In this document: piece after piece, positions 3,001 to 28,611 of the stretch
How the letters are laid out: every line of letters begins with the position of its first letter
Numbering within the stretch: position 1 is the stretch's first letter
NCBI GenBank assembly: GCA_947085405.1
Contig: CAMTWO010000024.1
Location: 579 to 64,578 of the forward strand
Length of the DNA stretch: 64,000 nucleotides
DNA from: an uncultured Ignavibacteriota bacterium
GTDB taxonomy: Bacteria > Bacteroidota > Ignavibacteria > UBA10030 > BY39
Direction: 5' to 3'
Notes under the pieces: model-generated
What the model saw: the letters and a program-made list of their open reading frames with translations, nothing else
Database searches by the model: none
What the model was told of the DNA's origin: nothing
Position numbers and translations under genes: made by a program

Positions 3001-3676
3001 AGGCGCAGATGGAAATAGTCAGGATATGTTCATTAGAAATGGTGCTAAGGGAATTAATTTAGGTATAAGCGATTTCGATATGCCGCCTTATCCACCTAAG
3101 AACCTTTTTAATGCACGGTTTCAATCGGATAAGTTTATAGAAACCATTCTTCCTAACGGGAAAATCAAAAAGATGCCAATTGTTATAAAGCATGCACAAT
3201 ATCCTGTTGAAATCAGTTGGGATGTAAAGGATGCAAATAATATAAACTATTGGATATATAAACCTGGTTCCAATAACGAAAAAGTGTCCCTCAGTGGTAA
3301 GGGTAAACTATCCGTTCCGAATACATCAAACGATATACTATTTGTAGAGGCCCAAGCAGCGTTACCAAGGCCTTGTGAATTTTATAAAATATCTACCGAA
3401 GAAAATATACCTGAAAACTTTTCATTATACCAGAACTATCCTAATCCCTTCAATCCAACAACAATAATCACATACGATTTACCTGAAAACAGTTATGTAA
3501 ACTTGAAAATATATGATGTTTTGGGCAGAGAAGTAGCAAAATTAGTAGAGGAATACCAAGAAGCCGGTTATAAATCTGTAGAATTTGATGCTTTAAATTT
3601 GACTAGCGGTGTTTATTTTTATAAATTAGTAGCAGGTAATTACACTTCAATCAAGAAAATGCTACTGTTACGTTAG
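2..3676 (+). CDS. Large secreted BNR/Asp-box (sialidase-like) repeat protein with fibronectin-III-like region and C-terminal T9SS sorting domain; 5' end outside window
   Basis: Frame is open from window position 2, and MKIGGP at 41 has no signal peptide, so the start is probably upstream. Repeated Asp-box motifs SxDxGxxW (SENDGQSWS, TTNGGVNWN, SDNGGVSWS, STDNGANWG). C-terminus NYPNPFNPTTIITYDLP...KIYDVLGREVAKLVEE...VYFYKLVAGNY...KKMLLLR is a type-A T9SS CTD. Confidence 0.8.
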   Translation: MTGQVWFRGNNFPVKIGGPCITYDPNNNPNGPYNMYMGGFGPNNGKAYLYKSENDGQSWSKVLSFEQFQNSSGFNGEGITCISIKEGNPHHIWVGTTNGIVFTTNGGVNWNRVSIPGVSTPYVKRILLRKEGSIITGAMVTWGKNKDTTGIGRLLTPNWSYEPLNSNFKSGLDPTPSDTGSSLYSALAFVDSLENVVMAGKESRPFRKTTNFGFSWTGDLVHPDKIRFWYDDASINNIPKHSNEAQNHPISPDYQSYSGMTSLVKNPNNGLGNQWYMSGGKGARMTTRGISHPDSVSASRWKYTVFGQAMTVNYDVVFNTVNYTGYPNGRKAIYLPLSDWTMGWTYQDRLNNIVSNGMISDALSYDRQKTFQSNLSDTYISNVIRILIDPDNPNLSYCVGGSVYGFTAENRRAGFYVRTLNTNGTFTTERNTTHQFLTDNDRAIVDAIIYKKPDNVNRIIALVGGNRASYPPGGTIGLFYSDNGGVSWSQGTFTVQSGVMGKQTMQAYNNSLIPGLRSGLDGSIGDLFNGHFSLSYAGGSLVYLWLQSDTTSGSYGGGLFISTDNGANWGAGADIDSGNIYWGAGSLKYIGNDRLALAFRDFRTTPKGLYIGSINRANNGSVSWAEFGVVGPTRFASAEHLDVNLDRWVVYGKRDGDLYNQIYLSINNGNWQRIGPLTPQHLPGVKSLRIRPDKNEIWVATGGQGVWKFNDFDPRFTVKDVGINTGWNMLSVPLEIFDFRANSVYNNRIPSTSVFTYDNGNYIISDSLTNGIGYWVKYSSSQNINYAGLSKSFIVPVKAGWNMIGSVDQNLPKSKIYSNPENLIISNFYGYENSYHNADTIKSGKGYWVKANLSGTITLDRNSTYSRTQYQCSDDSLPNPSGAPPIPTLVSPTNGSTGISNYPTLRWKRPESISLTYRLQISTNSCYTNLLYDESSISDTSIQIGLSYNTKYYWRVTATNDVTTSSWSNTWNFTTRSAPQIDPCDPVVSSLSSLDKFTVRGADGNSQDMFIRNGAKGINLGISDFDMPPYPPKNLFNARFQSDKFIETILPNGKIKKMPIVIKHAQYPVEISWDVKDANNINYWIYKPGSNNEKVSLSGKGKLSVPNTSNDILFVEAQAALPRPCEFYKISTEENIPENFSLYQNYPNPFNPTTIITYDLPENSYVNLKIYDVLGREVAKLVEEYQEAGYKSVEFDALNLTSGVYFYKLVAGNYTSIKKMLLLR

Positions 3677-3714
3677 AAAAAAATGAAATATGGCATAAAA
3701 ATAAGAGGAAGTAT

Positions 3715-5946
3715 ATGAAATTCGATGAACGGTGTAAGTCTAATCTTCTGAAAGCACAGGAAGAAGCTAAAACATTGCGCCACCAAAAAGTGGAACCCGA
3801 ACACATCCTCTGGGTAGAGTTGCAAGTGAACGAAGCAAGCTTTGTTGAGTTTTTAGGTTCTCAAAAAATTTCTAAAGCTCACGTTCAGGGTGTAATCAAA
3901 AAGAGAATGGAGGATTTGCCAAGGTCTGCAACCAGCGACACACGTGAAGCTTCGCCACGAATGAAAACCTGTTTTGAAAAAGCAAAAAGGGAAGATAGCC
4001 AAGATGTTAGCTGGAGAGACTTAGTCGTTGCCGTTGTCGAAATTGAGAACGACCCGCTCACTGAAGTTATTTGGGATTGTGCAATAACTCCTTATGAGTA
4101 TAAGAATTTTACTAAAGGCGAGAAAGAGCTTGCAACCGTAACGCTCGGTGAATCTGAAAAAGAAGATGTGCTTTCCAAGTTCTGCATCGATTTGGTTAAG
4201 CAAGCGCAGGAAGGAAAGTTAGGTGCTGTCATCGGCAGACAAACTGAGATTCGTCAAATTACAACGATTCTCTCTCAAAAAATGACAAACAATCCGATAC
4301 TTATCGGCGACGCCGGTGTTGGAAAAACTCATATTGTAGAAGGACTCGCAGTTAAGATTGCAGCCGGTGAAGCAGGTCCTATTTTAAATGGAAAGAAAAT
4401 TTTATCTCTTGATGTTGGATTGTTGTTAGCGGGTGCAAACTATCGCGGTGAATTCGAAGAGAGGTTGAAAGCGATTATTAAAGCAATTTCAGGACACAAA
4501 GGAAACACAATTCTTTTTGTGGATGAGATTCATACGCTAATGGGAGCCGGTCAAACATCAGGTGCGCTCGATGCGGCAAATTTAATTAAGCCAGCGCTAG
4601 CGCGCGGCGAGTTGTGGCTGATTGGTGCAACAACTTATGCTGAATACAGAAAACATATCGAGAAAGACCCAGCTTTTACTCGCCGTTTTGGAAGAGTGAA
4701 TGTCCCCGAGCCGACGCACGAGGAAACCGTTACAATATTAAAAGGAGTGCGTGAGAAATTTCAGAAACACCATCAAGCCACAGTTCCCGACGACCAGATT
4801 GAAACAATCGTTAGCTTGTCCGGCAGATATATCGGCGATAATCAATTTCCCGCTAAAGCAATTCAAACGCTCGATAACACACTTGCGCGAGTACGACTTG
4901 CAAATGTTCTGGGTGAACGCCCCGATATGGTTGTTACGAATGAAGATGTAGCAGTGTCGGTTGGTGAGAAAACTGGAATTCCAGTTGATAAAATATTTAA
5001 AGATGAATCTACACGATTGTTAGGTATTGAAGATGTTCTCAAGAAAGATGTTGTGGGTCAGGATGAGGTAATCAGCACAATTGCAAAACGCTTACGTATG
5101 ATGTCGTTACCATTCCGTGATTCTGTCCGCCCAAGAGGAATCTTCTTATTTATAGGTCCATCAGGTGTTGGCAAAACTTATCTTGCTAAACAAATTGCGA
5201 TTGAACTATATGCCAGCTCGAAACAGTTGGTCCGTTTGGATATGTCGGAATACACTGATGAGCACACTTCTCGCCGACTCGTTGGTGCTGACCCCGGTTT
5301 GGTAGGTTACGAAGAAGGCGGTGTTCTCACTGAAGCCATTCGCCGCAGGCCTTATTCAATGGTGCTGTTGGATGAAATTGATAAGGCACATAAAAAAGTG
5401 TGTAACCTGTTCCTGCAAGTTTTTGATGAGGGCAGGTTGACCGATAGTCAGGGACATACGATTAATTTTTCGAACACGGTATTTATTCTTACATCCAATT
5501 ACGGTTTTACCGGAGCTGATATTGATGTCGCTAAAATCGATGAGAGCCAACAAGCACAGAAAGCGCTCGACCATTTCAAACGACACCTTGGACCCGAATT
5601 TATTAAACGTATGGACGAAGTCGTGGTTTTCAAATTCCTCAAACCTGAAGATGTACATAGAGTTGTTGACCAAAAATTAGCTTCCTACAGTCAGGAGTTT
5701 TCAAAATCGCCGGGCGGTCATCCGGTTAATATCGAACTCCTGCCGGAAGCGAGAGAACTTATTGTAAAGAACGGTTATCAGAAAGAATTCGGAGCCCGTT
5801 CAATCACTACTTTTATAGATACAGAATTAGCAAGTATAATGGCGACTGAAATTCTGAAGCGCCGACAACAGAAAGGAGGTATGTATATCCCGGATAAAAT
5901 ATTAATAACTACAAAGGACTCTATCTTAGATGTTGTCATTGATTAA
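3715..5946 (+). CDS. ClpV/ClpA-like double-AAA+ ATPase (Clp_N repeats, two nucleotide-binding domains, no long M-domain); candidate sheath-recycling ATPase of the adjacent contractile system
   Basis: Walker A GDAGVGKT (D1) and GPSGVGKT (D2), Walker B ILFVDEIH and MVLLDEIDKAH, sensor motif GLVGYEEGG, N-terminal Clp_N repeats. Only a ~40-aa linker between D1 and D2 (743 aa total), unlike ClpB. AGAGGA RBS 6 nt upstream of ATG. Confidence 0.8.
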   Translation: MKFDERCKSNLLKAQEEAKTLRHQKVEPEHILWVELQVNEASFVEFLGSQKISKAHVQGVIKKRMEDLPRSATSDTREASPRMKTCFEKAKREDSQDVSWRDLVVAVVEIENDPLTEVIWDCAITPYEYKNFTKGEKELATVTLGESEKEDVLSKFCIDLVKQAQEGKLGAVIGRQTEIRQITTILSQKMTNNPILIGDAGVGKTHIVEGLAVKIAAGEAGPILNGKKILSLDVGLLLAGANYRGEFEERLKAIIKAISGHKGNTILFVDEIHTLMGAGQTSGALDAANLIKPALARGELWLIGATTYAEYRKHIEKDPAFTRRFGRVNVPEPTHEETVTILKGVREKFQKHHQATVPDDQIETIVSLSGRYIGDNQFPAKAIQTLDNTLARVRLANVLGERPDMVVTNEDVAVSVGEKTGIPVDKIFKDESTRLLGIEDVLKKDVVGQDEVISTIAKRLRMMSLPFRDSVRPRGIFLFIGPSGVGKTYLAKQIAIELYASSKQLVRLDMSEYTDEHTSRRLVGADPGLVGYEEGGVLTEAIRRRPYSMVLLDEIDKAHKKVCNLFLQVFDEGRLTDSQGHTINFSNTVFILTSNYGFTGADIDVAKIDESQQAQKALDHFKRHLGPEFIKRMDEVVVFKFLKPEDVHRVVDQKLASYSQEFSKSPGGHPVNIELLPEARELIVKNGYQKEFGARSITTFIDTELASIMATEILKRRQQKGGMYIPDKILITTKDSILDVVID

Positions 5947-6022
5947 AAGATGGATACAAAAATTATTTGGAAAGAAAGTATCAAATAAAAAAATATCTAA
6001 CAACAAAAATAAAGGAATAACC

Positions 6023-6559
6023 ATGGGTAAAACACAAGATGTCGACAAAGCTCGACGAATACTTCCCACAAATGCTGCACCGGGAGTTGCTGAACTTAAC
6101 AGTAACTTCACTACAATAATCGCTTCGGTTAATCCTGAGACTGCCGGTGAAGATTGCACACCCGTAGAATGTGGTTCGGTTGCAGAGGTTGCAGCTAACT
6201 TCAAACCTAAAGTTGACCTCGAAATTAAAAAGCTCGACAAGTTAGGAGCCGATAAGGTCGAAGAATCAACCGCAACTGTAACGATGAACTACGGCGAAGA
6301 ACCATCGCAGATCATGGATGATTTCGGGGCTGAAAACATTGCCGTAAAAGCAAAATCTTCCGAAGGCGAAAGAGTTTTGCTCGATCAGCAGCTCTCGTAT
6401 CTTGCATTAGAGGATTTACAGGAGCGTTTAAAAGATCAAAAAGTAGCTCAACTCTTCCAGAACAACAAAGAAGCTTTAATTCAAACCCTCGAGGCAGAAA
6501 TTGAGCGGATGAAGAAATTGATCGAAGATGTAAAATTAGAATCTCTCGGTGGAGATTAA
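6023..6559 (+). CDS. Hypothetical protein with C-terminal coiled coil; possible TssB-like small sheath subunit
   Basis: ATG at 6023 preceded by AAAGGAATAA. The upstream in-frame ATG at 5930 overlaps the ATPase gene. The segment VTMNYGEEPSQIMDDFGAENIAVKA...LLDQQLSYLALEDLQERLKD resembles the TssB/VipA conserved core (LNF.SLADF.PD.V...L..L.ELR..L). Similarity is weak. Confidence 0.4.
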   Translation: MGKTQDVDKARRILPTNAAPGVAELNSNFTTIIASVNPETAGEDCTPVECGSVAEVAANFKPKVDLEIKKLDKLGADKVEESTATVTMNYGEEPSQIMDDFGAENIAVKAKSSEGERVLLDQQLSYLALEDLQERLKDQKVAQLFQNNKEALIQTLEAEIERMKKLIEDVKLESLGGD

Positions 6560-6611
6560 CTAAATAATTAATAACAAAACTATTAACAATAATCCTTAAG
6601 GAGAAATAACT

Positions 6612-7031
6612 ATGCCACAACCAAAATCTGTAAAGATCAGCGGGGTTGAAATAGACGAAGTCGAAGGTGTAACTCTGAATATTGATACACCCACCGGTCC
6701 AAGAGGAGACTATGATGGACGGACCTGTGCCGCAACTGTAGAATTATACAGACGAGCTCGCAACACACCGACAAGTGAGATGTTTAAACTTGCCACAAAT
6801 GAAGATGGTCGTTTAAAAATTATTGAAGGAACGATTGTTCTACAGGATGCCGAGCTTAAAGAAACATACACAATCGAGATGAAGGAAGCATACATAAGTA
6901 GTTGGGAATTCCATCAACCCCCCGAAGATACCGATATGTACGAAACGATAAAATTTAAAGTCGGTAAAATGTCGCTATCAGGCGGTGGAAAATCTAAAAC
7001 ATTCAGTGTTCCTGAATTTAAACGCAAGTAA
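6612..7031 (+). CDS. Contractile-system inner tube protein (Hcp / phage tail tube-like), paralog 1
   Basis: 139 aa, strong AAGGAG RBS. N-terminal pattern SVKISGVEIDEVEGVTLNIDTP resembles the tail-tube signature (F.V.IDG......V.GL). Clear paralog of the next gene (shared ATNEDGR, GTI, KVG..........GGKG). Confidence 0.5.
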   Translation: MPQPKSVKISGVEIDEVEGVTLNIDTPTGPRGDYDGRTCAATVELYRRARNTPTSEMFKLATNEDGRLKIIEGTIVLQDAELKETYTIEMKEAYISSWEFHQPPEDTDMYETIKFKVGKMSLSGGGKSKTFSVPEFKRK

Positions 7032-7049
7032 AGGAAAGGAGATAATAAA

Positions 7050-7469
7050 ATGATAAAAGATTATGCAATAAAACTAAACGGGGTTACAATCCCTAATGTT
7101 CAAGAAGTACGAGTGCGCATCGAAACACCCGGAGATTCACGTGGTATCTACAGAGAGCCAACCTTTGCTGCTACAATCAACATTACCCGTGATGCAAGCA
7201 ATAATGCAATCGTGGATGCGTTTGGTATGGCAACTAACGAAGACGGCAGGAAGAACATTCTTACGAGCGGTACTATCGAATGTCATGGTGACGATGTAAA
7301 AGATAACTATGCTTTCGAGATCAAGAAAGCTTTTATGTCACGATGGTCGCTTATTAATCCTATAAAACCCGAATTACCTACGCTTGAATCATTTGAAATA
7401 AAAGTTGGAGAATTAGATTATAAAGCTGGCGGTAAAGGTGCGAAATTTGCACTCAAAGCTTTTAAATAA
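7050..7469 (+). CDS. Contractile-system inner tube protein (Hcp / phage tail tube-like), paralog 2
   Basis: 139 aa, RBS AAAGGAG. About 35% identical to the 6612-7031 product across the full length. Confidence 0.5.
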   Translation: MIKDYAIKLNGVTIPNVQEVRVRIETPGDSRGIYREPTFAATINITRDASNNAIVDAFGMATNEDGRKNILTSGTIECHGDDVKDNYAFEIKKAFMSRWSLINPIKPELPTLESFEIKVGELDYKAGGKGAKFALKAFK

Positions 7470-7504
7470 AATTGAACAAATAAATATCATGAAAGGATAG
7501 AACC

Positions 7505-8935
7505 ATGCCAGATGAAAAAGATAAAACTCAGGTTCGTGAAACAACTGCTGTAGCTATAAAAACGAATGAACTCGCCGCTATACTTGGTCCAAAAACCGGG
7601 TCATTGCTTCCTGACGGAGTTGCACTAAAGATTTTACCCTCTGCAAAAGATTTCCCGATGGAAAATATGCAAACTTCTAAGGAGTCGGTCGCAAAGCCAC
7701 TGAAGATTACCCGCTCTAAAGCCGACGTAAACGCGGGCTATGTTTATCTTAAGCGATTAGAAGTGCTTAAAGATATGCTTGCCGGCGCGGCTGACCTTGC
7801 AACTCTGCGAGCTCGTGTAAAAGAAAGACGTGAAATGGTTTCTCAAGTATTCCAACAGAACATGGCAGCATTTTTTGCAAAACAACGTGGGCTGGAAAAA
7901 ACATACAGAGAACTCGACACGTTTTTCTATGAATCGCGCCTCAACCCGGGTGAAGCCGTAGCTTATGTCTCAATAGTCAATGCACACGCCGACCGTGATT
8001 TCAATGCGATAATGGATCCTGAAACGGGTCTTGCTGCAAGATTTCCTAACCGTGAAAACTTCGATATGAAAAGCTTAATCGGTATGTTTGTAATTCCGGA
8101 TTGGCCCGGAAGCGAAGCAAAACTTTCTAAGTATGGAGAACTTGCAAACCACAGTATGGCTCACCTCTTCTGCGGTTTCCCGGATATGTCAATTAAAGAA
8201 GCGCAAGAGTTGTTCGATGTTGGCGGTGATTTAGCTGAACTGAAATCTACAGACCCGATTAAACAACACATCTCCGTAGTTGCTAATCCGCTTAGAATAC
8301 GCCGTGCAAATCGCTTCGAGAAGGAACTTGGAGACTTTTATATTAACCCTGCAGGTATTCTTGCCGGTAAGATATACAAAGGCGATATCAAAGAAGGCAT
8401 CCATATTGCCCAGGCAAATAAACCACACGAAATAAAAATACCAACACCAGACGGCTCACCGTTAGAAATGAAGTGGAACATACGCGGTGGTCAGCAGATG
8501 AAGTTCAATAAAGCATTGATTCCTGTTGCATTTTATGAAGGACTTGTGTTCTGGGGTGTAGATACATTGTATTTAGCCGGCGGTCAAGGTGACGAAGGAA
8601 TGGACCAGTACACTGTAAAACGGTGCGATGAGTACATTGCTAAAGTTGTTCTACATTATCTCAACGGCCGCACATTCGTTCCAAATGAGCAGTCAAGCCG
8701 TGACCAGATTCAATCAGCAGTGCAAAAATTCCTGATGCACAACACCGGCGGTCCTGCAAAGATGCTTGAGTATGGTAAGGTTGACGGCGTTGAGGTAGTT
8801 ACCAATCCGGATGGCTCTGTGAACAATCAGGCAATTGATATTCGTATAAATGTTAAATACAAGAATGCGATACGCCAGTTGAACATGTTTCTGGTTTCTA
8901 CAGATTCAGAGCATTGGAAAGAAGGTAGTAAGTAA
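7505..8935 (+). CDS. Contractile sheath protein (TssC / phage sheath-like)
   Basis: 476 aa, the size of Bacteroidota-type TssC. Sits immediately downstream of the two tube genes and upstream of the spike and baseplate genes. Strong RBS GAAAGGA. Followed by two hairpin terminators. Confidence 0.55.
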   Translation: MPDEKDKTQVRETTAVAIKTNELAAILGPKTGSLLPDGVALKILPSAKDFPMENMQTSKESVAKPLKITRSKADVNAGYVYLKRLEVLKDMLAGAADLATLRARVKERREMVSQVFQQNMAAFFAKQRGLEKTYRELDTFFYESRLNPGEAVAYVSIVNAHADRDFNAIMDPETGLAARFPNRENFDMKSLIGMFVIPDWPGSEAKLSKYGELANHSMAHLFCGFPDMSIKEAQELFDVGGDLAELKSTDPIKQHISVVANPLRIRRANRFEKELGDFYINPAGILAGKIYKGDIKEGIHIAQANKPHEIKIPTPDGSPLEMKWNIRGGQQMKFNKALIPVAFYEGLVFWGVDTLYLAGGQGDEGMDQYTVKRCDEYIAKVVLHYLNGRTFVPNEQSSRDQIQSAVQKFLMHNTGGPAKMLEYGKVDGVEVVTNPDGSVNNQAIDIRINVKYKNAIRQLNMFLVSTDSEHWKEGSK

Positions 8936-8986
8936 TTTTTTAACCGTTCCTCCAAAGGGTGACAAGTAAAACGGTTAGTTAAACTA

Positions 8987-9014
8987 CTTAGTGTCCGTCA
9001 GTTGACGGACTAAG
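8987..9014 (+). terminator. Stem-loop (cttagtgtccgtca g ttgacggactaag) downstream of the sheath gene
   Basis: A perfect 8-bp core palindrome gtccgtca/tgacggac extended by ctta/taag, followed by a T-rich tract (ctctttgtg). Confidence 0.5.
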
Positions 9015-9123
9015 TGCTCTTTGTGAATAAGTGGTAACTGATGTTATGCATTCAAAGTTATCGTGTCTCAATAGCCCCGAACTTCACAGGTCGTGTGATA
9101 ACTGTAGGAACTCATCCCCCGAC

Positions 9124-9160
9124 CCCTTCTCTTGCCAAGAGAAGGGGGAATTGGATTTTT
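9124..9160 (+). terminator. Rho-independent terminator-like hairpin (ccccttctcttg/caagagaagggg) followed by a T-run
   Basis: A perfect 12-bp inverted repeat at 9124-9148, then gaattggattttt. This is the second hairpin in the 310-bp gap between the sheath and spike genes. Confidence 0.55.
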
Positions 9161-9245
9161 CTCCGCGGGGTTGAGTTCATTATATATACTTTTTACACAA
9201 CCCCTTAATAACTTACTATTTTATAATTAGATAATCAGGTGACTT

Positions 9246-11003
9246 ATGGCTTCTAAAGTAACTAATATAATTGTAACCGCTACAATAAATGGAAAGCCAC
9301 ACGGCTTGCGATTCGTAAACGCTAACGTGTGGCAATCGCTTTTTTCGCATTGCAAAATACGCCTTGCACTCGGATTCGATGAAGCGGAATGTAATTCTGT
9401 TTTCGATAAAGCGGTTTCCTCATGGCTCGGTGAAAAGTTAGAACTCACTGTTTCGGACCAATTAGATAACAGTATTTCTAAAAAATATATTGGCATCATT
9501 CACAACCTTCACCTCGAGACCGGTAATCTTATAGTCGATGCTATGTCGGAAGATTATTCTCTCAACTTCGTCGAGAAACATAAATCCTTCGTCGATATGT
9601 CTGCTTTCGATGTAGTGAATACAATTGTTAAAAATAAAACGTTTGCAAATTCCTTGACGGGACCGTCAAACGGAGTTCAGTTTCGGTTTTTGCACCAGTA
9701 TGACGAAACAGATTATGAATTCTTAAAGCGCCTCGCACGTTACGATGGCTGCGTCTTGTATCATGATGGCGAGACATTTAGATACGAACCAAAACTAAGC
9801 GGAACGAAGGAAATTAAATTAGGATTAGAAAATATTTCGGATGTCCGGCTTAATTGTTTTCTGGGAGATACGAGGTTCCACGGCGTTCCTTATGATTATC
9901 AGAAACATTCTGAGTCATCAGATTTGGTTGTAAACTCAGGAAGTTACCCGGCGCCTAATCATCCCTTTGGTTCAAAAATTTTCCAAAAATCAAATGACCT
10001 ACATAAAGAACCGACTGAAATTTACAAAGAGCCGATTGTGCAGAAAAGTGACTTTGAGAACTTTATTAAAAATCAGCAGGCATTTTACAGCGGACTGCAT
10101 ATCAACGTAACGGGGACAACAAATCATCCGATGGTTACAATCGGGCGTGCGATTGAGGCACCCGATCATCCGATATTGAAAGATAAGTTTGTAGTGGTGG
10201 AATTAGAAGCCGAATTTAAAGGTAATATTTACAGCGCATCATTCAAGGCAGCCGTTAAAGATTCTATCTTGCGAAAATTAGCCACCGACGAACGTGAATA
10301 CATGGGGCTTTTACAACCAGCGATAGTTGTCGATAATAAAGACCCTGAAAATATTGGCAGGGTGCAAATTCGTTACCTCTGGGATACGGATGGGAGTGCT
10401 CACGCTTGGGCTCGTGTGTTAACATCTTTTGCCGGTTCTGACCACGGCTCGCACCTAACTCCGCGAATATCAGATCAGGTTTTGGTTGGATGCGAACACG
10501 GCAACACATCGCTTCCGGTAGTCATCGGTTCACTTTATCACAGCGAAAACAAACCCGATTGTAAAACGGATAACGGCACCGAAGAAGTGCTGATTGCAAA
10601 AACTTCTTCCGGCTCGGAAATTCGAGTTATTGAAAAACAAGGTTCTGAGCAAATCTTGATCACTATGCCCAACGGTGAAAACCTGATACGGATGGAACAC
10701 AAAGGTCCCAAAATTTTCATCGAGTCGAACAATGGGACTATAGAGATTCACGCAAAAACGATAAAGATCAATGCCGATGATAAAATTGAAATGAAAGCTG
10801 ACAAAATTGAAATTTCAGCAACCTCCAAAGCCGAGATCAAAGCACAGGATATTGATGCGACGGCAGGTAATAAGCTATCTCTCGCTGGCTCATCTTCTGC
10901 CGAATTGAAATCGTCAGCATCAGTCAAAGTTAGCGGTACGCAAGTCGAATCTTCAGCAGCCGCAACTAACGTAATCAAAGGAGCAATGGTACAAATTAAT
11001 TAA
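9246..11003 (+). CDS. VgrG-like spike protein (gp27/gp5 hub fused to a C-terminal beta-helix)
   Basis: 585 aa. Central region RVQIRYLWDTDGSAHAWARVLTSFAGSDHGSHLTPRISDQVLVGCEHGNTSLPVVIGSLYH resembles the gp5 OB-fold / phage baseplate V / VgrG core. C-terminus carries repetitive beta-strand motifs (IEIHAKTIKINADDKIEMKADKIEISATSKAEIKAQDID...). Confidence 0.65.
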   Translation: MASKVTNIIVTATINGKPHGLRFVNANVWQSLFSHCKIRLALGFDEAECNSVFDKAVSSWLGEKLELTVSDQLDNSISKKYIGIIHNLHLETGNLIVDAMSEDYSLNFVEKHKSFVDMSAFDVVNTIVKNKTFANSLTGPSNGVQFRFLHQYDETDYEFLKRLARYDGCVLYHDGETFRYEPKLSGTKEIKLGLENISDVRLNCFLGDTRFHGVPYDYQKHSESSDLVVNSGSYPAPNHPFGSKIFQKSNDLHKEPTEIYKEPIVQKSDFENFIKNQQAFYSGLHINVTGTTNHPMVTIGRAIEAPDHPILKDKFVVVELEAEFKGNIYSASFKAAVKDSILRKLATDEREYMGLLQPAIVVDNKDPENIGRVQIRYLWDTDGSAHAWARVLTSFAGSDHGSHLTPRISDQVLVGCEHGNTSLPVVIGSLYHSENKPDCKTDNGTEEVLIAKTSSGSEIRVIEKQGSEQILITMPNGENLIRMEHKGPKIFIESNNGTIEIHAKTIKINADDKIEMKADKIEISATSKAEIKAQDIDATAGNKLSLAGSSSAELKSSASVKVSGTQVESSAAATNVIKGAMVQIN

Positions 11004-11183
11004 AAATTTAAAAAAAATCTAAATTCAAAACACTAAATTCTAAATTCCGAAGGAATCACTTAGTGACAAATCTTAAATTCAAATAACACAATATATGAAT
11101 TCGTTAAATATTAGTTACAGTATTTTGGGTTTTGAATATTCGAATTTGTTTCGGATTTCAAAATTAGAAATTAGAAATTATTT

Positions 11184-11636
11184 ATGGCAGTTTTACATAT
11201 TCCATTAACATTATCGCCAATCGGTACTTTTCAAAGGGCGAGTACTGAAGAGAATATAGTCGGTTCACGACTTCGATTATTTGTTCTATCGGGTGCTGGC
11301 GAATATCTCAAATTACCATCGCCGGGCATTCGTGCTATGTGGGTTCAATTCTACAATATGGGAATGAGCGCCCGCTTCTGCGATATTATGGAAGAAGACA
11401 GACGAAGATCTCTCGAACAGATTATTAAAGCCGAAGTGAACAATTGGTTTGGAGATATAGCGGAAATTCAGGATGTGAACTTGGTTGGTGATGAGCACGA
11501 AGAAAATGGAATTAAATTCCGCACCGAGAATAAAGAATATGTTTTTAAATTTAAGGTATCAAGAAGCGAAAAAGGACTGAAAGCAGGAACTGTAGGTCCG
11601 TGGAATATTATCGAGGAAACACATGACGTTCACTGA
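11184..11636 (+). CDS. gp25/TssE-like baseplate wedge protein (GPW_gp25 lysozyme-like fold)
   Basis: 150 aa. Matches the gp25 pattern I.GSRLRLFVLSGAGEYLKLPSPGI......F..........IIKAEVNNW (cf. i.qsi..iL.T..GER...P.fG......F......wEPR). Overlaps the next gene by 14 nt. Confidence 0.55.
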   Translation: MAVLHIPLTLSPIGTFQRASTEENIVGSRLRLFVLSGAGEYLKLPSPGIRAMWVQFYNMGMSARFCDIMEEDRRRSLEQIIKAEVNNWFGDIAEIQDVNLVGDEHEENGIKFRTENKEYVFKFKVSRSEKGLKAGTVGPWNIIEETHDVH

Positions 11637-13134
11637 TTTTAAATCACGTTTTATCAGTCAGTACAAGGGGGATATAAAAGATCCCATACTAACAACAATC
11701 CTACAAACTCTTGAAGCTTATCAGGAGGAAGTACAGGATCAACTCCTTTTATCAACCTATGCTCAACGGAGCGATCAGGTTTCCGACGGTTTGTTTGAAG
11801 TGCTTCGCCGTCATTTGTTTGGTCAGATGTTTCCGGGTCCGGCGTATGTTGTTCTGCAATCTACTTTGCGTGAGGTTAAAACTGCACAGCCGGTGTTATT
11901 GGAGCAAGCTCATTATTTCAACGTACAAGATAAGGAAGGGGCAAAAGTTCTATTCGCTCCTCAATACCCCGCTTGGATTGTTCCTGCCAACACGAACGAT
12001 GTTCGGGTTGATAGCTATGGCGACGACCTGATGCTTGGCTTTAGCATTTATATCGGTAATTTGCAAGACATCGAAAATGGTGAAGTAAGTATTTTCACAG
12101 GCGATATAGACCCGCTGCTGGTGGAACGACTCCGCTGCCGAATTACACAAACTACCGGTTTCAAAGTTATCGAAAATTCGAGGAAGTCAGTTATTAGAAC
12201 TAAATATCCGGGTAACTACAACATCATTGATGATTTCTTTCTCACACCTTATGAATCCCGCTTCATCAAAATTCCTTTCGATATTTTCATCGCCGCTTCA
12301 TCAAGTCGAGGAAAAGATGATATGATATGGATTCCTTTTCCGGGGCTTGGGGCTTTTGCACAAGAATTGGAAAAGAAACTCACACTCAATTCATTTCTTA
12401 CCTGGAATATGGTGGAGATGGAAGCTCTTGCGTTGCCAGTCGATCAATTCCGGTATAACATTCCGATTACCGCGCATAAGTCGAAGGAAACAATCATTAC
12501 TTCGGTTACAGACCTCGGCACAGACCCGCCGATTGAATACATAAACGCTGCTACAGTTATGGATCCGGGTTATCCGTTTCAATATACTACGTCGGTTGAT
12601 ATTCATAAAGATGAAATTGTTTTAGCTTTTTCTCCACCGCCTTCGGGCACAGTGAAAGTACAATATTGTCAGTACGATATTGGAGATGAATGCATCAACA
12701 TTGCATCAGGAAGAAGTTTCGGACTTTATCAAGGAATAGATGAAAGAGTAAAAAGCGCTCAATCGATTACTCCGACTCATCGTATCGAGGCTCTGAATAA
12801 CAAAGCACACATCTGGAATTATTTCAGATCGCTTCTTGCAAGCCGCCATCGCTGGTTAACTAAAGACGACTTGCGTGCAGCTATGATAGGTTATCCTCCA
12901 TTTAGCCATCGAAGTGATTTAGTTAACGCAAATGATATTTCATTTGAAGAAAAAGTCGGGCGTGTTAAAGGATTTTTAACTCCATTCACCGAAATAAATA
13001 TTCCTGTAAATGATGGTGGATTATTAGACGAGCCCGACAAAAGTTACTTCGAACAGCAAATAAGCGATTATATTAGAGGTAGAACAGTGAATGGTAATTT
13101 TATCAGAATAAAACTTGTATCTGCAGAAACATAA
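11623..13134 (+). CDS. Baseplate wedge protein (TssF / baseplate J / gp6-like), putative
   Basis: 503 aa. Position directly after gp25 and before the next wedge gene follows the TssE-TssF-TssG order. Translationally coupled at both ends (overlap at start, TAATG junction at end). No specific motif recognised. Confidence 0.4.
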   Translation: MTFTDFKSRFISQYKGDIKDPILTTILQTLEAYQEEVQDQLLLSTYAQRSDQVSDGLFEVLRRHLFGQMFPGPAYVVLQSTLREVKTAQPVLLEQAHYFNVQDKEGAKVLFAPQYPAWIVPANTNDVRVDSYGDDLMLGFSIYIGNLQDIENGEVSIFTGDIDPLLVERLRCRITQTTGFKVIENSRKSVIRTKYPGNYNIIDDFFLTPYESRFIKIPFDIFIAASSSRGKDDMIWIPFPGLGAFAQELEKKLTLNSFLTWNMVEMEALALPVDQFRYNIPITAHKSKETIITSVTDLGTDPPIEYINAATVMDPGYPFQYTTSVDIHKDEIVLAFSPPPSGTVKVQYCQYDIGDECINIASGRSFGLYQGIDERVKSAQSITPTHRIEALNNKAHIWNYFRSLLASRHRWLTKDDLRAAMIGYPPFSHRSDLVNANDISFEEKVGRVKGFLTPFTEINIPVNDGGLLDEPDKSYFEQQISDYIRGRTVNGNFIRIKLVSAET

Positions 13135-13985
13135 TGGACGAGAAAGAAAAAATAGAAATACCACTTCAGATTGCTTCACTTGAAGACCTCCTGCCAATTG
13201 GACTGCTCGATAAAGATGAATCGGTTGGGACTTCAAATGCCGTAAAAGCATTGCGTATAATTGAACGGCTTATACAAGATGCGGGCTTGAACAGCATGGA
13301 GCATTCACGTTACGCTCTTCTGCAATCTTTTCCTCGCCTGTTTGCTGATAGAGACGGACAAACTTTCGAGACGCTGCACGAAGATATTCCCGATTATGTT
13401 CGCCAATATACCGCAGCGTTATGCCCTGAATGGTACTCAGATTTCATCTCATCTCTATCCGATGACCAAGCTGAAGTATTTCTGAAGAATTATGTCCATG
13501 CTCATGAAACTTGGGGACATCCGGAGGGAATAGCGACTCTTGTTCGAACGATGTTAGAAAGTTCAACTCAGTTTCCTGTCCCCGTCGTAGTGAAAAAATT
13601 AGAATATCAGGAGCGACCAATCCCGGATGAACTTCAGTCTAAATTAGGTGCGAAGGATAATTATTCAATAATCGGAAAAAATTTTGTTCTCGGCAAAAAA
13701 TTCAAGTCGCGCCCTAAATATTATAACATCATAATCGGACCGATAAATGTTAGAACGCTTGAAAAATTCCAGGAAGCGGGTTGGGCTGAGGATGCAAATG
13801 CAAGTAAAAAATTGTACCGGCTTGTAGAATTTGCCGAGCCGTTTTATTTTCACGCTCGTATTCAAATCCTGTTAGAAACCGCAGGATTCGTACTGGGACG
13901 AGCATCCATAGGAAAAGACCGATTGGGTATTGTTGAAAGTGAATTGGAAGAATATGTTGATACTTTGTTTGGCGTTAAAGGTTAA
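13134..13985 (+). CDS. Baseplate wedge protein (TssG / gp7-like), putative
   Basis: 283 aa. TAATG start overlap with the upstream gene. Assignment rests on gene order only. Confidence 0.3.
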   Translation: MDEKEKIEIPLQIASLEDLLPIGLLDKDESVGTSNAVKALRIIERLIQDAGLNSMEHSRYALLQSFPRLFADRDGQTFETLHEDIPDYVRQYTAALCPEWYSDFISSLSDDQAEVFLKNYVHAHETWGHPEGIATLVRTMLESSTQFPVPVVVKKLEYQERPIPDELQSKLGAKDNYSIIGKNFVLGKKFKSRPKYYNIIIGPINVRTLEKFQEAGWAEDANASKKLYRLVEFAEPFYFHARIQILLETAGFVLGRASIGKDRLGIVESELEEYVDTLFGVKG

Positions 13986-14014
13986 AAAAAATCATAAATC
14001 ATAAATCGTAAATT

Positions 14015-14665
14015 ATGGGACAACCAGCCGCACGTATAAGCGACATGCACGTATGCCCGATGGTAACACCGGGCGTTCCGCCAATTCCACATGTTGGTGG
14101 TCCTATTACTGGACCAGGAGTTCCTAACGTACTAATCGGTGGTATGCCTGCCGCTGTAATGGGCGATATGGCAACATGTGTGGGTCCACCGGATACTATT
14201 CTTAAAGGTTCGGTAGGTGTTCTGATTGGTGGCAAACCCGCTGCACGAATGGGCGATACTTGCGCACACGGCGGCACAATCGTTCTCGGATGTCCGACTG
14301 TTTTGATTGGCGAAGTGATGCCTGGCGCACCACCTGTTATTGTGCCACCTTTCGCTGTGCCGGTTCAGCCGGAAATGAAATCAAGCGAGAAAAAAACTAC
14401 TTCCCCAACTCCACCATCCAAAAAAGCTGAACAGAAACCTACTAAGAAAGAAGAAAAAAAGAAAACCGATTGGATTGAAGTAGAAGTAACAGATGAAGAT
14501 GGAAAACCGATGATAGGTGAAAAATATGAGATTGAGTTGCCAGACGGCTCTATTAAAAGAGGTGTTATTGATGCAAAAGGTAAAATTAAATTAGAGGGCG
14601 TTGAACCCGGAACTTGCAAAATTACTTTTCCTGAAATTGATTCTGAAGAATGGGAAATAAAATAA
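14015..14665 (+). CDS. PAAR-repeat spike-tip protein with Lys/Pro-rich linker and ~70-aa C-terminal beta domain
   Basis: The N-terminal 100 aa are a classic PAAR domain (PAARISDMHVCP..., GGMPAAVMGDMATCVGP, GGKPAARMGDTCAHGG). This is followed by KKTTSPTPPSKKAEQKPTKKEEKKK and a small domain (KYEIELPDGSIKRGVIDAKGKIKLEGVEPGTCKITF). Confidence 0.85.
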   Translation: MGQPAARISDMHVCPMVTPGVPPIPHVGGPITGPGVPNVLIGGMPAAVMGDMATCVGPPDTILKGSVGVLIGGKPAARMGDTCAHGGTIVLGCPTVLIGEVMPGAPPVIVPPFAVPVQPEMKSSEKKTTSPTPPSKKAEQKPTKKEEKKKTDWIEVEVTDEDGKPMIGEKYEIELPDGSIKRGVIDAKGKIKLEGVEPGTCKITFPEIDSEEWEIK

Positions 14666-15337
14666 TTGGAGCTATACATGAGCAAGGTACACATAGTAAA
14701 ACAAGGTGAGTGTTTAGCGAGCATTGCAAAGAAGAATGAGTTTAAAAATTGGAAAACTATTTATGAACATCCAGATAATAAAGATTTAAAAAATAAGAGG
14801 CCAAATCCAAATATTTTGTTCCCGGGCGATAGGATTATTATACCCGATAAATCGTTAAAGCAAGCAAATATAGAAACCAATGGAAAATACAAAATTAAGA
14901 TTAAGACGCAAAAAGTACAATTTAGAATTTACTTAAAAGATAGAAAAGGAAAACCTATAGCAAATAAGAATTATGAATTAATGATTGATAATCGAACATT
15001 TTACGGAACGACCGGTTCAAAGGGGTTAATAGAAAGAGAAATATCGGAAGATGCTGACGTTGGATATTTAACTGTAGAGATTAATGAACCACCATATAGT
15101 GAGAAATATAGTTGGAAAATTAAGATCGGAAATCTTGATCCAGCAGATGAAATCAGCGGAATACAAGCTCGTTTAAACAACTTAGGGTTTTCCTGCGGCA
15201 CTGTTGATGGTATCATTGGACAAAAAACGAAGGATGCATTAAAAGCTTTTCAACGGAGTTATAACATAGAACCAACGGGGAAAATTGATAATACTACAAA
15301 GAAGAAAATAGAAGATATTCATGACCAAAAAAGTTGA
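14666..15337 (+). CDS. LysM-domain plus peptidoglycan-binding (PG_binding_1) domain protein
   Basis: N-terminal LysM (KVHIVKQGECLASIAKKNEF...ILFPGDRIIIP). C-terminal PG_binding_1 (IQARLNNLGFSCGTVDGIIGQKTKDALKAFQRSYNIEPTGKID). Starts immediately after the PAAR gene stop. Confidence 0.75.
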   Translation: MELYMSKVHIVKQGECLASIAKKNEFKNWKTIYEHPDNKDLKNKRPNPNILFPGDRIIIPDKSLKQANIETNGKYKIKIKTQKVQFRIYLKDRKGKPIANKNYELMIDNRTFYGTTGSKGLIEREISEDADVGYLTVEINEPPYSEKYSWKIKIGNLDPADEISGIQARLNNLGFSCGTVDGIIGQKTKDALKAFQRSYNIEPTGKIDNTTKKKIEDIHDQKS

Positions 15338-23759: not shown

Positions 23760-23856
23760 TATTTTTTAATGACTCACTAATATTCAATAAATACAAGAAT
23801 AACTATATGAATGATCTTGAAATTAATAATATAAAAATAGATTGGAGGGTGATATT

Positions 23857-25752: not shown

Positions 25753-25790
25753 CTTGCCCGCCGAAGCGTTCACGCATAGGCGGGAGCTTC
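25746..25790. repeat. GC-rich palindromic element (CCCGCC...AGCGTTCA...GGCGGG), copy 1; terminator-like
   Basis: ttgcccgccgaagcgttcacgcataggcgggagcttcgg, immediately after the stop of the T9SS gene. Two alternative stems: cccgcc/ggcggg and ccgaagc/gcttcgg. Confidence 0.5.
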
Positions 25791-25818
25791 GGAGGATAAA
25801 TGCTGATGAAATAAATTT

Positions 25819-26892: not shown

Positions 26893-26933
26893 AAAGGAAA
26901 TATTAAAACGGAATAATTTCTAAATAAAATGAA

Positions 26934-28599: not shown

Positions 28600-28611
28600 T
28601 GATTTAATACT

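What the first reader, a model, noticed from the sequence alone, without database searches (positions are those of the whole stretch)
3715..5946. Clp ATPase without an M-domain embedded in the injection locus
The ATPase has tandem Clp_N repeats and two AAA+ modules but only ~40 residues between them, a ClpA-like architecture; ClpB and classical ClpV carry a coiled-coil middle domain. Its position at the head of the tube/sheath operon argues for a dedicated sheath-disassembly role. An M-domain-less ClpV would be unusual. It has a YGF tripeptide (TSNYGFTGAD) that could be a ClpP-docking loop, which would instead imply a degradative Clp partner.
Basis: partly seen in the sequence, partly recalled or inferred. 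Interest (0 to 1): 0.5.

Follow-up and report, generated by a model that had tools for sequence, protein, structure and literature searches.

The report
T6SS Clp ATPase lacking middle domain
This gene encodes a two-ring Clp/Hsp100 unfolding motor that sits in a bacterial type VI secretion (injection) gene cluster and most likely recycles the fired sheath, but unlike every reference secretion-system ClpV checked here it has no middle domain and no tyrosine in its second pore loop.

Summary
The ORF at 3715-5946 (+) is real. It encodes a 743-aa class-1 Hsp100 protein: a Clp N-domain, two intact AAA+ rings and no M-domain.

- **M-domain:** the junction is 32 residues long, against 30 in ClpA, 87 in ClpC, 108-112 in Bacteroidales T6SSiii TssH, 118-179 in T6SSi ClpV and 146-153 in ClpB.
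- **Family:** it belongs to a small family (about 58 clusters, 716-761 aa) from Ignavibacteria/Kapabacteria-type Bacteroidota MAGs.
- **Gene context:** in all five loci examined, down to 44% identity, the gene directly precedes a putative tssB, hcp and tssC (plus vgrG and tssE/F/G where the contig extends that far).
- **"YGF":** this is not a ClpP-docking loop. It overlaps the universal sensor-1 motif TSN-x-G, varies within the family, and nothing matches the ClpA IGL or ClpC GIGF loop. No clpP or clpS lies in the window.
- **ClpV hallmarks:** the protein also lacks the ClpV-specific N-terminal helix α0.
- **Pore loops:** the D2 pore-loop tyrosine is replaced by Leu or Thr in 58 of 58 members, while the D1 tyrosine is kept. 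This is the reverse of T6SSi ClpV.

The best reading is a dedicated sheath-recycling unfoldase that works like ClpV but forms a distinct Hsp100 subfamily. I rate it a new variant of a known kind, of moderate interest.

The parts
3715..5946 (+). Gene for the 743-aa M-domain-less Clp/Hsp100 ATPase (TssH-like), stop codon included
   Evidence: ORF list and translation. Pfam and NCBIfam matches fall below every equivalog cut-off: ClpB 705.8 against 1232, TssH 631.5 against 885, ClpA 629.5 against 993. AlphaFold model with pLDDT 85.2.
3715..4149 (+). N-domain (residues 1-145): two four-helix Clp_N repeats, with no N-terminal helix α0
   Evidence: Pfam Clp_N matches only residues 14-62. The model shows eight helices, the first starting at residue 5. 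Among solved structures only ClpC N-domains match, at E >= 2.5e-4, and no ClpV N-domain matches. E. coli ClpV has about 10 extra N-terminal residues.
4195..4914 (+). D1 AAA+ module (residues about 161-400): Walker A 198-205, pore loop 239-248 (NYRG, Tyr243), Walker B 266-273, Arg fingers 323-324
   Evidence: Motif conservation in 43 family members; Tyr243 is present in 42 of 43.
4873..4974 (+). D1-D2 junction (residues 387-420), the place where ClpB, ClpC, ClpV and TssH-iii carry their M-domain; only 32 residues separate the anchors here
   Evidence: Alignments, anchor spacing table and model secondary structure.
5035..5634 (+). D2 AAA+ module, large subdomain (residues about 441-640): Walker A 481-488, Walker B 550-559, Arg finger 632
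   Evidence: Pfam AAA_2 at 472-636, E = 2.8e-54. Motif conservation.
5284..5322 (+). D2 pore loop GADPGLVGYEEGG (residues 524-536): the canonical GYVG tyrosine is replaced by Leu529
   Evidence: Family members P0001-P0058 carry LV 51, TV 4, LI 2, TI 1. ClpB-like hits carry YV 56, YI 3. All ClpA, ClpC, ClpV-i and TssH-iii references carry GYVG.
5491..5508 (+).
   Evidence: It aligns with TSNLGS (ClpB), TSNLGY (ClpV), TTNAGV (ClpA) and TSNIGT (ClpC). The ClpA IGL and ClpC GIGF loops lie about 10 residues further on, where this protein has DIDVAKIDE. Family variation is given.
5635..5943 (+). D2 small subdomain (residues 641-743), with sensor-2 GAR at 693-695
   Evidence: Pfam ClpB_D2-small at 642-722. 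Motif conservation.
6023..6559 (+). Putative small sheath subunit TssB. The ORF is listed from 5930; the likely start is 6023.
   Evidence: There is no Pfam hit. It is homologous to the 166-aa protein directly upstream of TssC in L026 (E = 2e-21). Proteins of 177-178 aa occupy the same position in L037 and L038. An AAAGGAA motif precedes the ATG at 6023. The profile match to Bacteroidales TssB is colinear but weak (hhalign E = 0.007, probability 5%). This assignment is inferred.
6612..7031 (+). Hcp-like tube protein, copy 1
   Evidence: No Pfam hit here. It is a paralogue of 7050-7469 and a homologue of the L026 and L032 small proteins. The orthologous position in L036 and L037 carries PF17642 TssD on record.
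7050..7469 (+). Hcp-like tube protein, copy 2
   Evidence: Same evidence as copy 1.
7505..8935 (+). Large sheath subunit TssC (476 aa), the presumed substrate of the ATPase
   Evidence: Pfam PF17541 TssC, E = 4.9e-28. The family co-occurs with the ATPase family.
9246..11003 (+). VgrG spike
   Evidence: Pfam Phage_base_V and Phage_GPD, plus NCBIfam TssI/VgrG.
11184..13985 (+). Baseplate genes: TssE-like (11184-11636), TssF-like (11623-13134), TssG (13134-13985)
   Evidence: TssG is supported by Pfam PF06996 and TIGR03347. TssE and TssF are assigned by position and size only; the 503-aa protein matches the 580-aa protein of L026. These two are inferred.
14015..14665 (+). PAAR spike-tip protein
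   Evidence: Pfam PAAR_motif, E = 2e-23.

Best explanation
The gene encodes the dedicated recycling unfoldase of a divergent Bacteroidota type VI secretion system. It is a functional counterpart of ClpV/TssH.

**Shown**
- It is a complete class-1 Hsp100 protein with both ATPase sites intact.
- It has no M-domain, no ClpP-docking loop and no ClpV helix α0.
- It forms its own conserved family.
- That family is co-inherited and co-located with the sheath, tube, spike and baseplate genes.

**Inferred**
- It forms a two-tier hexamer.
- Its N-domain recognises something exposed only on the contracted TssB/TssC sheath. By analogy with ClpV this would be the clade-specific N-terminal about 60-80 residues of TssC.
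- It threads sheath subunits through the central pore using ATP hydrolysis in both rings, and releases them for a new round of assembly.
- Because the D1 pore-loop Tyr is kept and the D2 Tyr is replaced by Leu or Thr, D1 is probably the main substrate-gripping ring.
- Without an M-domain it cannot be coupled to or repressed through Hsp70 as ClpB is. Specificity and control must therefore come from the N-domain and from substrate availability.
- Nothing is degraded.
For: **Architecture and motifs:**

**Conserved gene order:**
- The order ATPase, putative TssB, two Hcp-like genes, TssC, VgrG, TssE/F/G holds in the window and in L037 (52% identity) and L038 (58%).
- L026 (48%) places TssC before the two Hcp-like genes.
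- L036 (44%) shows ATPase, two small genes, TssC and TssD before its contig ends.

**Co-occurrence:** 20 ATPase clusters and TssC clusters share the identical longest-contig length. Both families are small (about 58 and 49 clusters) and come from the same Ignavibacteria/Kapabacteria/Bacteroidota MAGs.

**Monophyly:** the family is monophyletic with 98-100% NJ bootstrap and is not nested in ClpA, ClpB, ClpC or Bacteroidales TssH.

**No protease partner:** there is no ClpP loop and no clpP or clpS in 64 kb.

**Co-transcription:** the gene is on the same strand as the downstream genes. The gap to the likely tssB start is 76 bp, with no plus-strand terminator-like site in it.

**Antibacterial T6SS context:** the sister locus L037 ends in a Tae4 amidase effector.

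**Precedent:**
- ClpV disassembles contracted sheaths through its N-domain and ATP-driven threading (PMC10433429).
- In Francisella, mutations that abolish the M-domain-DnaK contact of ClpB leave T6S intact, whereas the N-domain and both NBDs are needed (PMC7182274).
Against: - No activity was tested, and nothing shows binding to the sheath.
- The known ClpV recognition device (α0 plus the hydrophobic groove) is absent, so the recognition step is purely inferred.
- The loss of the D2 pore-loop tyrosine could mean weakened or altered threading.
- TIGR03345 (TssH) scores below its cut-off, 631.5 against 884.95.
- The TssB, TssE and TssF assignments in the window rest on position and weak similarity.
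- The most divergent member, P0058 (43% identity), sits on a 5.3-kb contig where no T6SS gene is visible.
- The next-closest TssC clade (L032) has no Clp ATPase within 10 kb, so such systems may not strictly need one.
Confidence: 0.75

Rival explanations
1. It is a ClpP-coupled degradative unfoldase (ClpA- or ClpC-like). It would dock on ClpP through the YGF tripeptide and degrade sheath or other proteins.
For: - The domain layout matches ClpA: the ClpA profile matches in one continuous stretch, and the junction length is 32 against 30 residues.
- A Φ-G-Φ tripeptide is present at residues 596-598.
Against: - YGF is the sensor-1 motif TSNxG, shared with ClpB and ClpV, which do not bind ClpP.
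- The tripeptide varies within the family.
- The positions homologous to the ClpA IGL and ClpC GIGF loops carry no such motif.
- The TIGR02639 score of 629.5 is well below its 993 cut-off.
- NJ support for grouping with ClpA is 0-6.5% and with ClpC 1.5-3%.
- No clpP or clpS lies in the window.
Confidence: 0.03
2. It is a general-purpose chaperone or disaggregase of the cell (a truncated ClpB). It would either lie next to the T6SS genes by chance or be shared between stress response and T6SS, as ClpB is in Francisella.
For: - The best profile score is to ClpB, at 705.8 bits.
- The highest core identity is to ClpB and ClpC, at 44-47%.
- Francisella provides a precedent for ClpB serving a T6SS (PMC7182274).
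Against: - Without an M-domain it lacks the Hsp70-docking element on which ClpB disaggregation depends (PMC7182274).
- Its position is conserved inside the T6SS operon over 44-96% identity.
- The family is tiny and restricted to contigs that also carry this TssC, unlike a housekeeping gene.
- NJ support for grouping with ClpB is 0-1.5%.
Confidence: 0.05
3. It is a T6SS-dedicated ATPase, but its client is not the contracted sheath. It might instead remodel baseplate or membrane-complex parts, load or unfold effectors, or prevent premature sheath polymerisation.
For: - The ClpV-type sheath-binding groove (α0) is missing.
- The D2 pore loop is atypical.
- A related T6SS-like clade manages without a neighbouring Clp ATPase.
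- In several relatives the gene follows a TssK-like gene and a GTPase-like gene.
Against: - Its conserved position is immediately before the putative tssB, with hcp-like genes and tssC following in every locus.
- In every studied T6SS the Hsp100 partner (ClpV, or ClpB in Francisella) acts on the sheath (PMC10433429, PMC7182274).
- P. aeruginosa ClpV1 also lacks a usable groove, yet it is still described as the sheath-disassembly ATPase and binds the sheath-associated adaptor TagJ/HsiE1 (PMC4239648).
Confidence: 0.12

Closest known systems
ClpV/TssH of proteobacterial-type T6SSi (NCBIfam TIGR03345; e.g. V. cholerae ClpV, E. coli O157 ECs_0223)
   Same: - It is a class-1 Hsp100 with an N-domain and two AAA+ rings.
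- It is encoded inside the T6SS cluster.
- It has no ClpP loop, and sensor-1 is followed by Φ-G-aromatic in some members.
- Its presumed job is sheath recycling.
- NJ trees place the window family as sister to seven T6SSi ClpV with 95-97% bootstrap.
   Different: - It has no M-domain: spacing is 32 residues against 118-179.
- It has no N-terminal helix α0.
- The pore loops are reversed. ClpV-i has lost the D1 Tyr (AGASVKG) and kept D2 GYVG. This family keeps the D1 Tyr and has D2 G[L/T]VG.
- It scores below the TIGR03345 cut-off.
- The sister grouping comes mainly from D2 (92.5%), where both groups are most divergent. It is only 36% in D1, with three exclusive shared residues, so it may be long-branch attraction.
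TssH of Bacteroidales T6SSiii (three examples retrieved: L030, L031, L034)
   Same: - It comes from the same phylum-level host group.
- It is associated with a PF17541-type TssC.
- Helix α0 is lacking or nearly lacking.
- It has no ClpP loop.
- It lies in the T6SS cluster; in L031 it is directly next to tssB-tssC.
   Different: - Bacteroidales TssH is 813-826 aa, with an intermediate M-domain (spacing 108-112) and a canonical D2 GYVG.
- It is only 27-37% identical over BLAST segments.
- NJ support for grouping with the window family is 0-1%.
ClpA (E. coli; TIGR02639)
   Same: - The domain order is the same: N-domain, D1, D2 with no M-domain.
- The junction length is nearly identical (30 against 32 residues).
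- The overall size is similar (758 against 743 aa).
   Different: - There is no IGL ClpP-docking motif.
- There is no adjacent clpS.
- It falls below the family cut-off.
- It does not group with ClpA in trees.
- D2 has GLVG instead of GYVG.
ClpB (including Francisella ClpB, which serves the T6SSii sheath)
   Same: - It gives the highest profile score and core identity.
- The D1 pore loop is of the (K/N)YRG type.
- It has no ClpP loop.
- Francisella ClpB is a precedent for an Hsp100 that services a T6SS without needing the DnaK contact of the M-domain (PMC7182274).
   Different: - The 146-153-residue M-domain region is missing.
- The D2 pore Tyr is missing.
- It is encoded in the T6SS operon rather than as a stress gene.
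- It scores 705.8 against a 1232 cut-off.
Unnamed M-domain-less Hsp100 clade in Patescibacteria/'Gammaproteobacteria' MAGs (L005, L006, L010, L024, L025)
   Same: It is 715-738 aa, has a junction spacing of 32-34 residues, and is 36-38% identical.
   Different: - It is a separate clade with 100% bootstrap.
- It keeps D2 GYVG.
- Its D1 pore loop is SHRG.
- It has a long insertion after sensor-1.
- Its genomic context was not examined.

Membership tests
T6SS ATPase TssH/ClpV (T6SSi type, TIGR03345) | Class-1 Hsp100: an N-domain plus two AAA+ modules with intact Walker A/B, sensors and Arg fingers | tested here: met
   Pfam and NCBIfam matches, the model, and motif conservation in 43 sequences
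T6SS ATPase TssH/ClpV (T6SSi type, TIGR03345) | Encoded within a T6SS gene cluster together with tssB and tssC | tested here: met
   Window gene order. Conserved in L001, L003, L004, L026, L036, L037 and L038
T6SS ATPase TssH/ClpV (T6SSi type, TIGR03345) | Coiled-coil M-domain inserted in the D1 small subdomain | tested here: not met
   Spacing is 32 residues against 118-179 in seven T6SSi ClpV. The model shows no coiled coil. The literature says ClpV 'possess an M-domain' (PMC10149685)
T6SS ATPase TssH/ClpV (T6SSi type, TIGR03345) | N-terminal helix α0, which forms with α1 the groove that binds the TssC N-terminal helix (PMC4239648) | tested here: not met
E. coli ClpV has about 10 extra N-terminal residues. 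No ClpV N-domain structure matched even at E <= 10
T6SS ATPase TssH/ClpV (T6SSi type, TIGR03345) | Score at or above the NCBIfam equivalog cut-off | tested here: not met
   631.5 bits against a cut-off of 884.95, matched in two stretches
T6SS ATPase TssH/ClpV (T6SSi type, TIGR03345) | Absence of a ClpP-docking loop | tested here: met
   No [LIV]-G-[FL] at the ClpA/ClpC loop position
T6SS ATPase TssH/ClpV (T6SSi type, TIGR03345) | ATP-dependent disassembly of contracted TssB/TssC sheaths | not testable with these tools
   This needs biochemistry or live imaging
Bacteroidales T6SSiii TssH | Intermediate M-domain (spacing about 110), D2 GYVG, and clustering with Bacteroidales TssH | tested here: not met
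   Spacing is 32 against 108-112, D2 is GLVG against GYVG, and NJ support is 0-1%. Only three reference sequences were available
ClpA (TIGR02639) | N-D1-D2 layout without an M-domain | tested here: met
   Single-stretch match over residues 5-723. Spacing is 32 against 30
ClpA (TIGR02639) | IGL/IGF ClpP-docking tripeptide about 10 residues after sensor-1 | tested here: not met
   The aligned segment is DIDVAKIDE
ClpA (TIGR02639) | Equivalog score, phylogenetic placement and a clpS neighbour | tested here: not met
   629.5 bits against a 993.15 cut-off. NJ support is 0-6.5%. There is no ClpS hit in the window
ClpB (TIGR03346) | Long M-domain (about 120-150 residues) that docks Hsp70, and an equivalog score | tested here: not met
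   Spacing is 32 against 146-153. The score is 705.8 bits against a 1232.1 cut-off
ClpC | Short M-domain with a UVR-like motif, and an LGF/GIGF ClpP loop | tested here: not met
   The Bacteroidaceae ClpC reference (L008) has a UVR motif, spacing of 87 and a GGGIGF loop. The window protein has none of these

The most novel reading that the evidence does not exclude
This family may be a third, independently specialised lineage of T6SS Hsp100 unfoldases, alongside T6SSi ClpV and Bacteroidales TssH.
- It would belong to an undescribed T6SS sub-type of Ignavibacteria/Kapabacteria-like Bacteroidota, with its own TssC clade and no recognisable TssN-R membrane complex.
- In this lineage the M-domain, helix α0 and the D2 pore tyrosine have all been dispensed with.
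- Sheath recognition and threading would then work by a mechanism different from the ClpV paradigm: D1-driven grip, a new N-domain/sheath interface, and possibly a TPR adaptor encoded in the locus.
Probability: 0.35. Interest if true: 0.6.

Novelty: new variant of a known kind. Interest (0 to 1): 0.45.

Why it matters
- **M-domain function:** what the ClpV M-domain does is, to my knowledge, unsettled, and the papers read here do not address it. A natural T6SS-linked Hsp100 without it suggests it is dispensable for sheath recycling. This fits the Francisella result that the ClpB-DnaK contact, made through the M-domain, is not needed for T6S. The family offers a minimal enzyme on which to test the idea.
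- **Division of labour between rings:** the pore loops are reversed relative to T6SSi ClpV (D1 Tyr kept and D2 Tyr lost, against D1 Tyr lost and D2 Tyr kept). This is a clean comparative handle on which ring grips the sheath.
- **New recognition interface:** the absence of helix α0 means a new N-domain/sheath recognition interface remains to be found.
- **Poorly charted T6SS clade:** the locus is in the Ignavibacteria/Kapabacteria branch of Bacteroidota. NCBIfam names none of its genes above the curated cut-offs, and the public names on record for the ATPase are 'ClpC' or 'ATP-dependent Clp protease ATP-binding subunit'. Surveys that rely on the TssH equivalog cut-off will miss it.

Tried and rejected
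1. **Plasmid search with the ATPase:** tblastn against the plasmid collection returned only ClpB, matched in two pieces. No close relative is there.
2. **TssC homologue searches:** searches with one sequence and with a 16-sequence profile found only the same 47-49 proteins.
3. **Metagenome scans:** With seven sequences it returned a single locus, L032.
4. **Bacteroidaceae hits L008 and L009:** these looked like possible TssH but are housekeeping ClpC. L008 has a UVR motif and lies beside gyrA and htpG.
5. **NJ grouping with T6SSi ClpV (95-97%):** I do not accept this as settled. It is driven by D2 (92.5%, against 36% in D1), where both groups are most divergent. Only three exclusive shared residues support it, no more than for the Patescibacteria clade. 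No maximum-likelihood program was available.
6. **Promoter and terminator scan of 3000-15000:** counts are within chance (35 against 27.9 ± 5.5; 15 against 10.3 ± 3.2). The scan does not cover Bacteroidota promoters.
7. **TssB confirmation:** The profile-profile comparison with Bacteroidales TssB was weak (probability 5%).
8. **Whole-model Foldseek search:** it gave only generic ClpC, ClpB and ClpA hits and did not discriminate between them.
9. **Literature:** searches for an M-domain-less ClpV, or for T6SS in Ignavibacteria, found nothing relevant. Two key ClpV papers (PMC3191042, PMC2646146) are not held.


Full report
**What is there**

The ORF at 3715..5946 on the plus strand encodes 743 residues. 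Pfam finds one Clp_N repeat (residues 14-62), AAA and AAA_lid_9 for the first ring, and AAA_2 (472-636) plus ClpB_D2-small (642-722) for the second. NCBIfam scores are ClpB 705.8 bits, TssH/ClpV1 631.5 and ClpA 629.5, all far below the curated cut-offs of 1232, 885 and 993. ClpB and ClpV match in two stretches, while ClpA matches in one continuous stretch over residues 5-723. Solved ClpB, ClpC and Hsp104 chains likewise match in two stretches and ClpA chains in one.

**The missing M-domain**

I aligned the protein with E. coli ClpA, ClpB and the O157 T6SS ClpV, taken from annotated genomes. I also added a Bacteroidaceae ClpC, three Bacteroidales T6SSiii TssH and six further annotated T6SSi TssH. 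I then counted the residues between the D1-small 'KAIDxxD' anchor and the 'GIP' anchor.

| Group | Spacing (residues) |
|---|---|
| Window protein and 13 family members | 32 |
| E. coli ClpA | 30 |
| ClpC | 87 |
| Bacteroidales T6SSiii TssH | 108-112 |
| T6SSi ClpV | 118-179 |
| ClpB | 146-153 |

An AlphaFold2 model built on 43 family sequences (mean pLDDT 85.2) shows D1-small helix 380-398 joined by about 10 residues to helix 409-420, with no coiled coil.

**N-domain**

Sequence methods see only the first Clp_N repeat. The model shows eight helices in two sets of four, so the tandem-repeat fold is present. The first helix starts at residue 5. E. coli ClpV has about ten more N-terminal residues. 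[quoted passage not shown] That helix is absent here. No ClpV N-domain structure matched even at E <= 10, and only ClpC N-domains matched weakly.

**The YGF tripeptide**

YGF occupies residues 596-598, directly after the sensor-1 asparagine Asn595. TSNYGF aligns with TSNLGS (ClpB), TSNLGY (E. coli ClpV), TTNAGV (ClpA) and TSNIGT (ClpC). The ClpA IGL and ClpC GIGF docking motifs lie about ten residues further on, where this protein reads DIDVAKIDE. Across 43 family members:
- position 596 is H in 24, Y in 14, F in 2, L in 2 and P in 1;
- position 598 is F in 31, Y in 11 and S in 1.

The ClpP-docking idea is therefore not supported. Pfam scans of the window's main ORFs, plus tblastn with E. coli ClpS, found no clpP, clpS or second Clp ATPase in the 64 kb.

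**Catalytic motifs and pore loops**

Walker A/B, sensor-1/2 and the arginine fingers of both rings are essentially invariant in the family. The D1 pore loop keeps its tyrosine (NYRG, 42 of 43). The D2 pore loop reads G-L-V-G where all references have G-Y-V-G:
- family members P0001-P0058 carry LV 51, TV 4, LI 2 and TI 1;
- 59 of 62 ClpB-like hits carry YV or YI;
- every ClpA, ClpC, ClpV-i and TssH-iii reference carries GYVG.

All seven T6SSi ClpV show the opposite pattern. Their D1 loop is AGA[S/G]V[K/R]G without tyrosine, and D2 is intact.

**Genomic context**

Downstream on the same strand lie, in order:
- a 178/209-aa protein, the putative TssB;
- two paralogous 139-aa Hcp-like proteins;
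- TssC (PF17541, E = 4.9e-28);
- VgrG;
- a 150-aa and a 503-aa protein, at the TssE and TssF positions;
- TssG;
- a PAAR protein.

The same order follows the ATPase at 58% (L038) and 52% (L037) identity. L026 (48%) places TssC before the two Hcp-like genes. The short L036 contig (44%) shows ATPase, two small genes, TssC and TssD. The ATPase is also present in the 96% and 77% relatives L001, L003 and L004.

The ATPase family (about 58 clusters at 90% identity, then a sharp drop to about 870-aa ClpB) and the TssC family (47-49 clusters) share 20 identical longest-contig lengths. Source names are Ignavibacteriaceae, Ignavibacteriae, Bacteroidota and Candidatus Kapabacteria MAGs. In relatives, a TssK-like gene and a 668-732-aa GTPase-like gene precede the ATPase. 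In the window's lineage, a 1211-aa T9SS-sorted protein (41-3676) sits between them and the ATPase. L037 ends in a Tae4 amidase effector gene, which points to an antibacterial T6SS.

**Phylogeny**

Neighbour-joining trees were built on 569-574 gap-trimmed core columns, with 200 bootstraps and two distance corrections.
- The family is monophyletic at 98-100%.
- It groups with ClpA in 0-6.5% of replicates, ClpB in 0-1.5%, ClpC in 1.5-3% and Bacteroidales TssH in 0-1%.
- It groups with T6SSi ClpV at 95-97% over the whole core. That support is 36% in D1 and 92.5% in D2. D2 is where both groups are most divergent (mean identity 33%, below the 39% to ClpB).
- Only three residues are shared exclusively with ClpV.

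I treat the deeper placement as unresolved. What is solid is that this is a separate subfamily, and not housekeeping ClpA, ClpB or ClpC.

**How it most likely works**

By homology and conserved context, this is the recycling unfoldase of this T6SS. A two-tier hexamer would be recruited through its N-domain to contracted sheath, and would then pull sheath subunits through its pore using ATP. The published ClpV mechanism is of this kind: an N-domain bound to the TssC N-terminal helix that is exposed on contraction, followed by ATP-dependent disassembly (PMC10433429).

Three features are particular to this family.
- No M-domain means no Hsp70 coupling and no M-domain repression. In Francisella, mutations that abolish the ClpB-DnaK contact, which is made through the M-domain, leave T6S intact, while the N-domain and NBDs are required (PMC7182274).
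- No α0 means the recognition surface must differ. The TssC N-terminal about 60-80 residues are clade-specific and partly conserved, which makes them a candidate partner. This was not tested.
- An aliphatic D2 pore loop suggests that D1 supplies most of the grip.

All of these mechanistic steps are inferences; no activity was measured.

**Comparison and novelty**

The protein works like ClpV/TssH, but it fails three tested ClpV criteria: the M-domain, helix α0 and the equivalog score. It also fails the ClpP-loop and score criteria of ClpA, so I do not file it in either family. ClpV/TssH is described as possessing an M-domain (PMC10149685). All ten reference T6SS ATPases I retrieved do. I found no paper describing an M-domain-less T6SS ATPase or this T6SS clade. 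That is absence of evidence within a limited library. I rate it a new variant of a known kind, with moderate interest.

Noticed in passing
window 4429-4458 and 5284-5322; references L029, L039-L044: The pore loops are reversed between the two groups. All seven T6SSi ClpV lack the D1 pore-loop tyrosine (AGA[S/G]V[K/R]G) and keep D2 GYVG. The window family keeps the D1 Tyr and has D2 G[L/T][V/I]G in 58 of 58 members.
   Followed up: partly
L032 (Ga0105099_10000229), 1-21443: This locus carries the next-closest TssC clade (P0317, 294 bits). It has TssK, a 770-aa double-GTPase-like protein, a 670-aa protein, a TssB-like protein, TssC, two Hcp-like proteins and VgrG. No Clp ATPase lies within 10 kb on either side.
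   Followed up: partly
L001 548-4058; L037 4392-7964; L026 2-3388: A TssK-like gene of about 455 aa and a 668-732-aa protein distantly related to DO-GTPase families precede the ATPase in relatives. In the window's lineage, the 1211-aa T9SS-sorted protein (window 41-3676) is inserted between them and the ATPase. The TssK-like and GTPase-like genes themselves lie beyond the window's left edge.
   Followed up: partly
window 17643-20159: A Ser/Thr protein kinase fused to six PEGA domains lies inside the T6SS locus. This recalls the PpkA-type threonine-phosphorylation control of some T6SSi systems. No FHA protein was seen.
   Followed up: no
window 20327-20890 and 22330-22905: Two paralogous small TPR proteins (187 and 191 aa) lie in the locus. 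They could be adaptors, since TagJ/HsiE1 is a ClpV-binding accessory protein in some T6SSi systems. This idea is untested.
   Followed up: no
window 14666-15337: A protein with weak LysM and strong PG_binding_1 domains lies directly after the PAAR gene. It may be a peptidoglycan-anchoring or effector-related component.
   Followed up: no
window 1-34000; L036-L038: No Pfam hit to the Bacteroidota membrane-complex families (TssN/O/P/Q/R) was found in the window's locus or is on record in the relatives. The membrane anchor of this T6SS clade is therefore unidentified.
   Followed up: no
window 5930-6559: The ORF listed from 5930 overlaps the ATPase stop codon. The likely true start of the putative tssB is the ATG at 6023, which is preceded by AAAGGAA. 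That start gives 178 aa, matching the 177-178-aa orthologues.
   Followed up: partly
window 23842-33969: There are three ORFs with Por_Secre_tail/CHU_C T9SS sorting domains (23842-25752, 27223-28599, 29000-30976). A 951-aa Cleaved_Adhesin/beta-helix protein with no sorting-domain hit follows at 31114-33969. All lie just after the T6SS genes.
   Followed up: no
L005, L006, L010, L024, L025 (Patescibacteria and 'Gammaproteobacteria' MAGs): This is another M-domain-less Hsp100 clade (715-738 aa, junction spacing 32-34). It has an SHRG D1 pore loop, GYVG in D2, a long insertion after sensor-1 and no obvious ClpP motif. Its genomic context was not examined.
   Followed up: no
window 60768-63884 (- strand): A Type ISP restriction-modification enzyme (N6_Mtase plus Type_ISP_C) lies at the far end of the window. 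It is unrelated to the finding.
   Followed up: no
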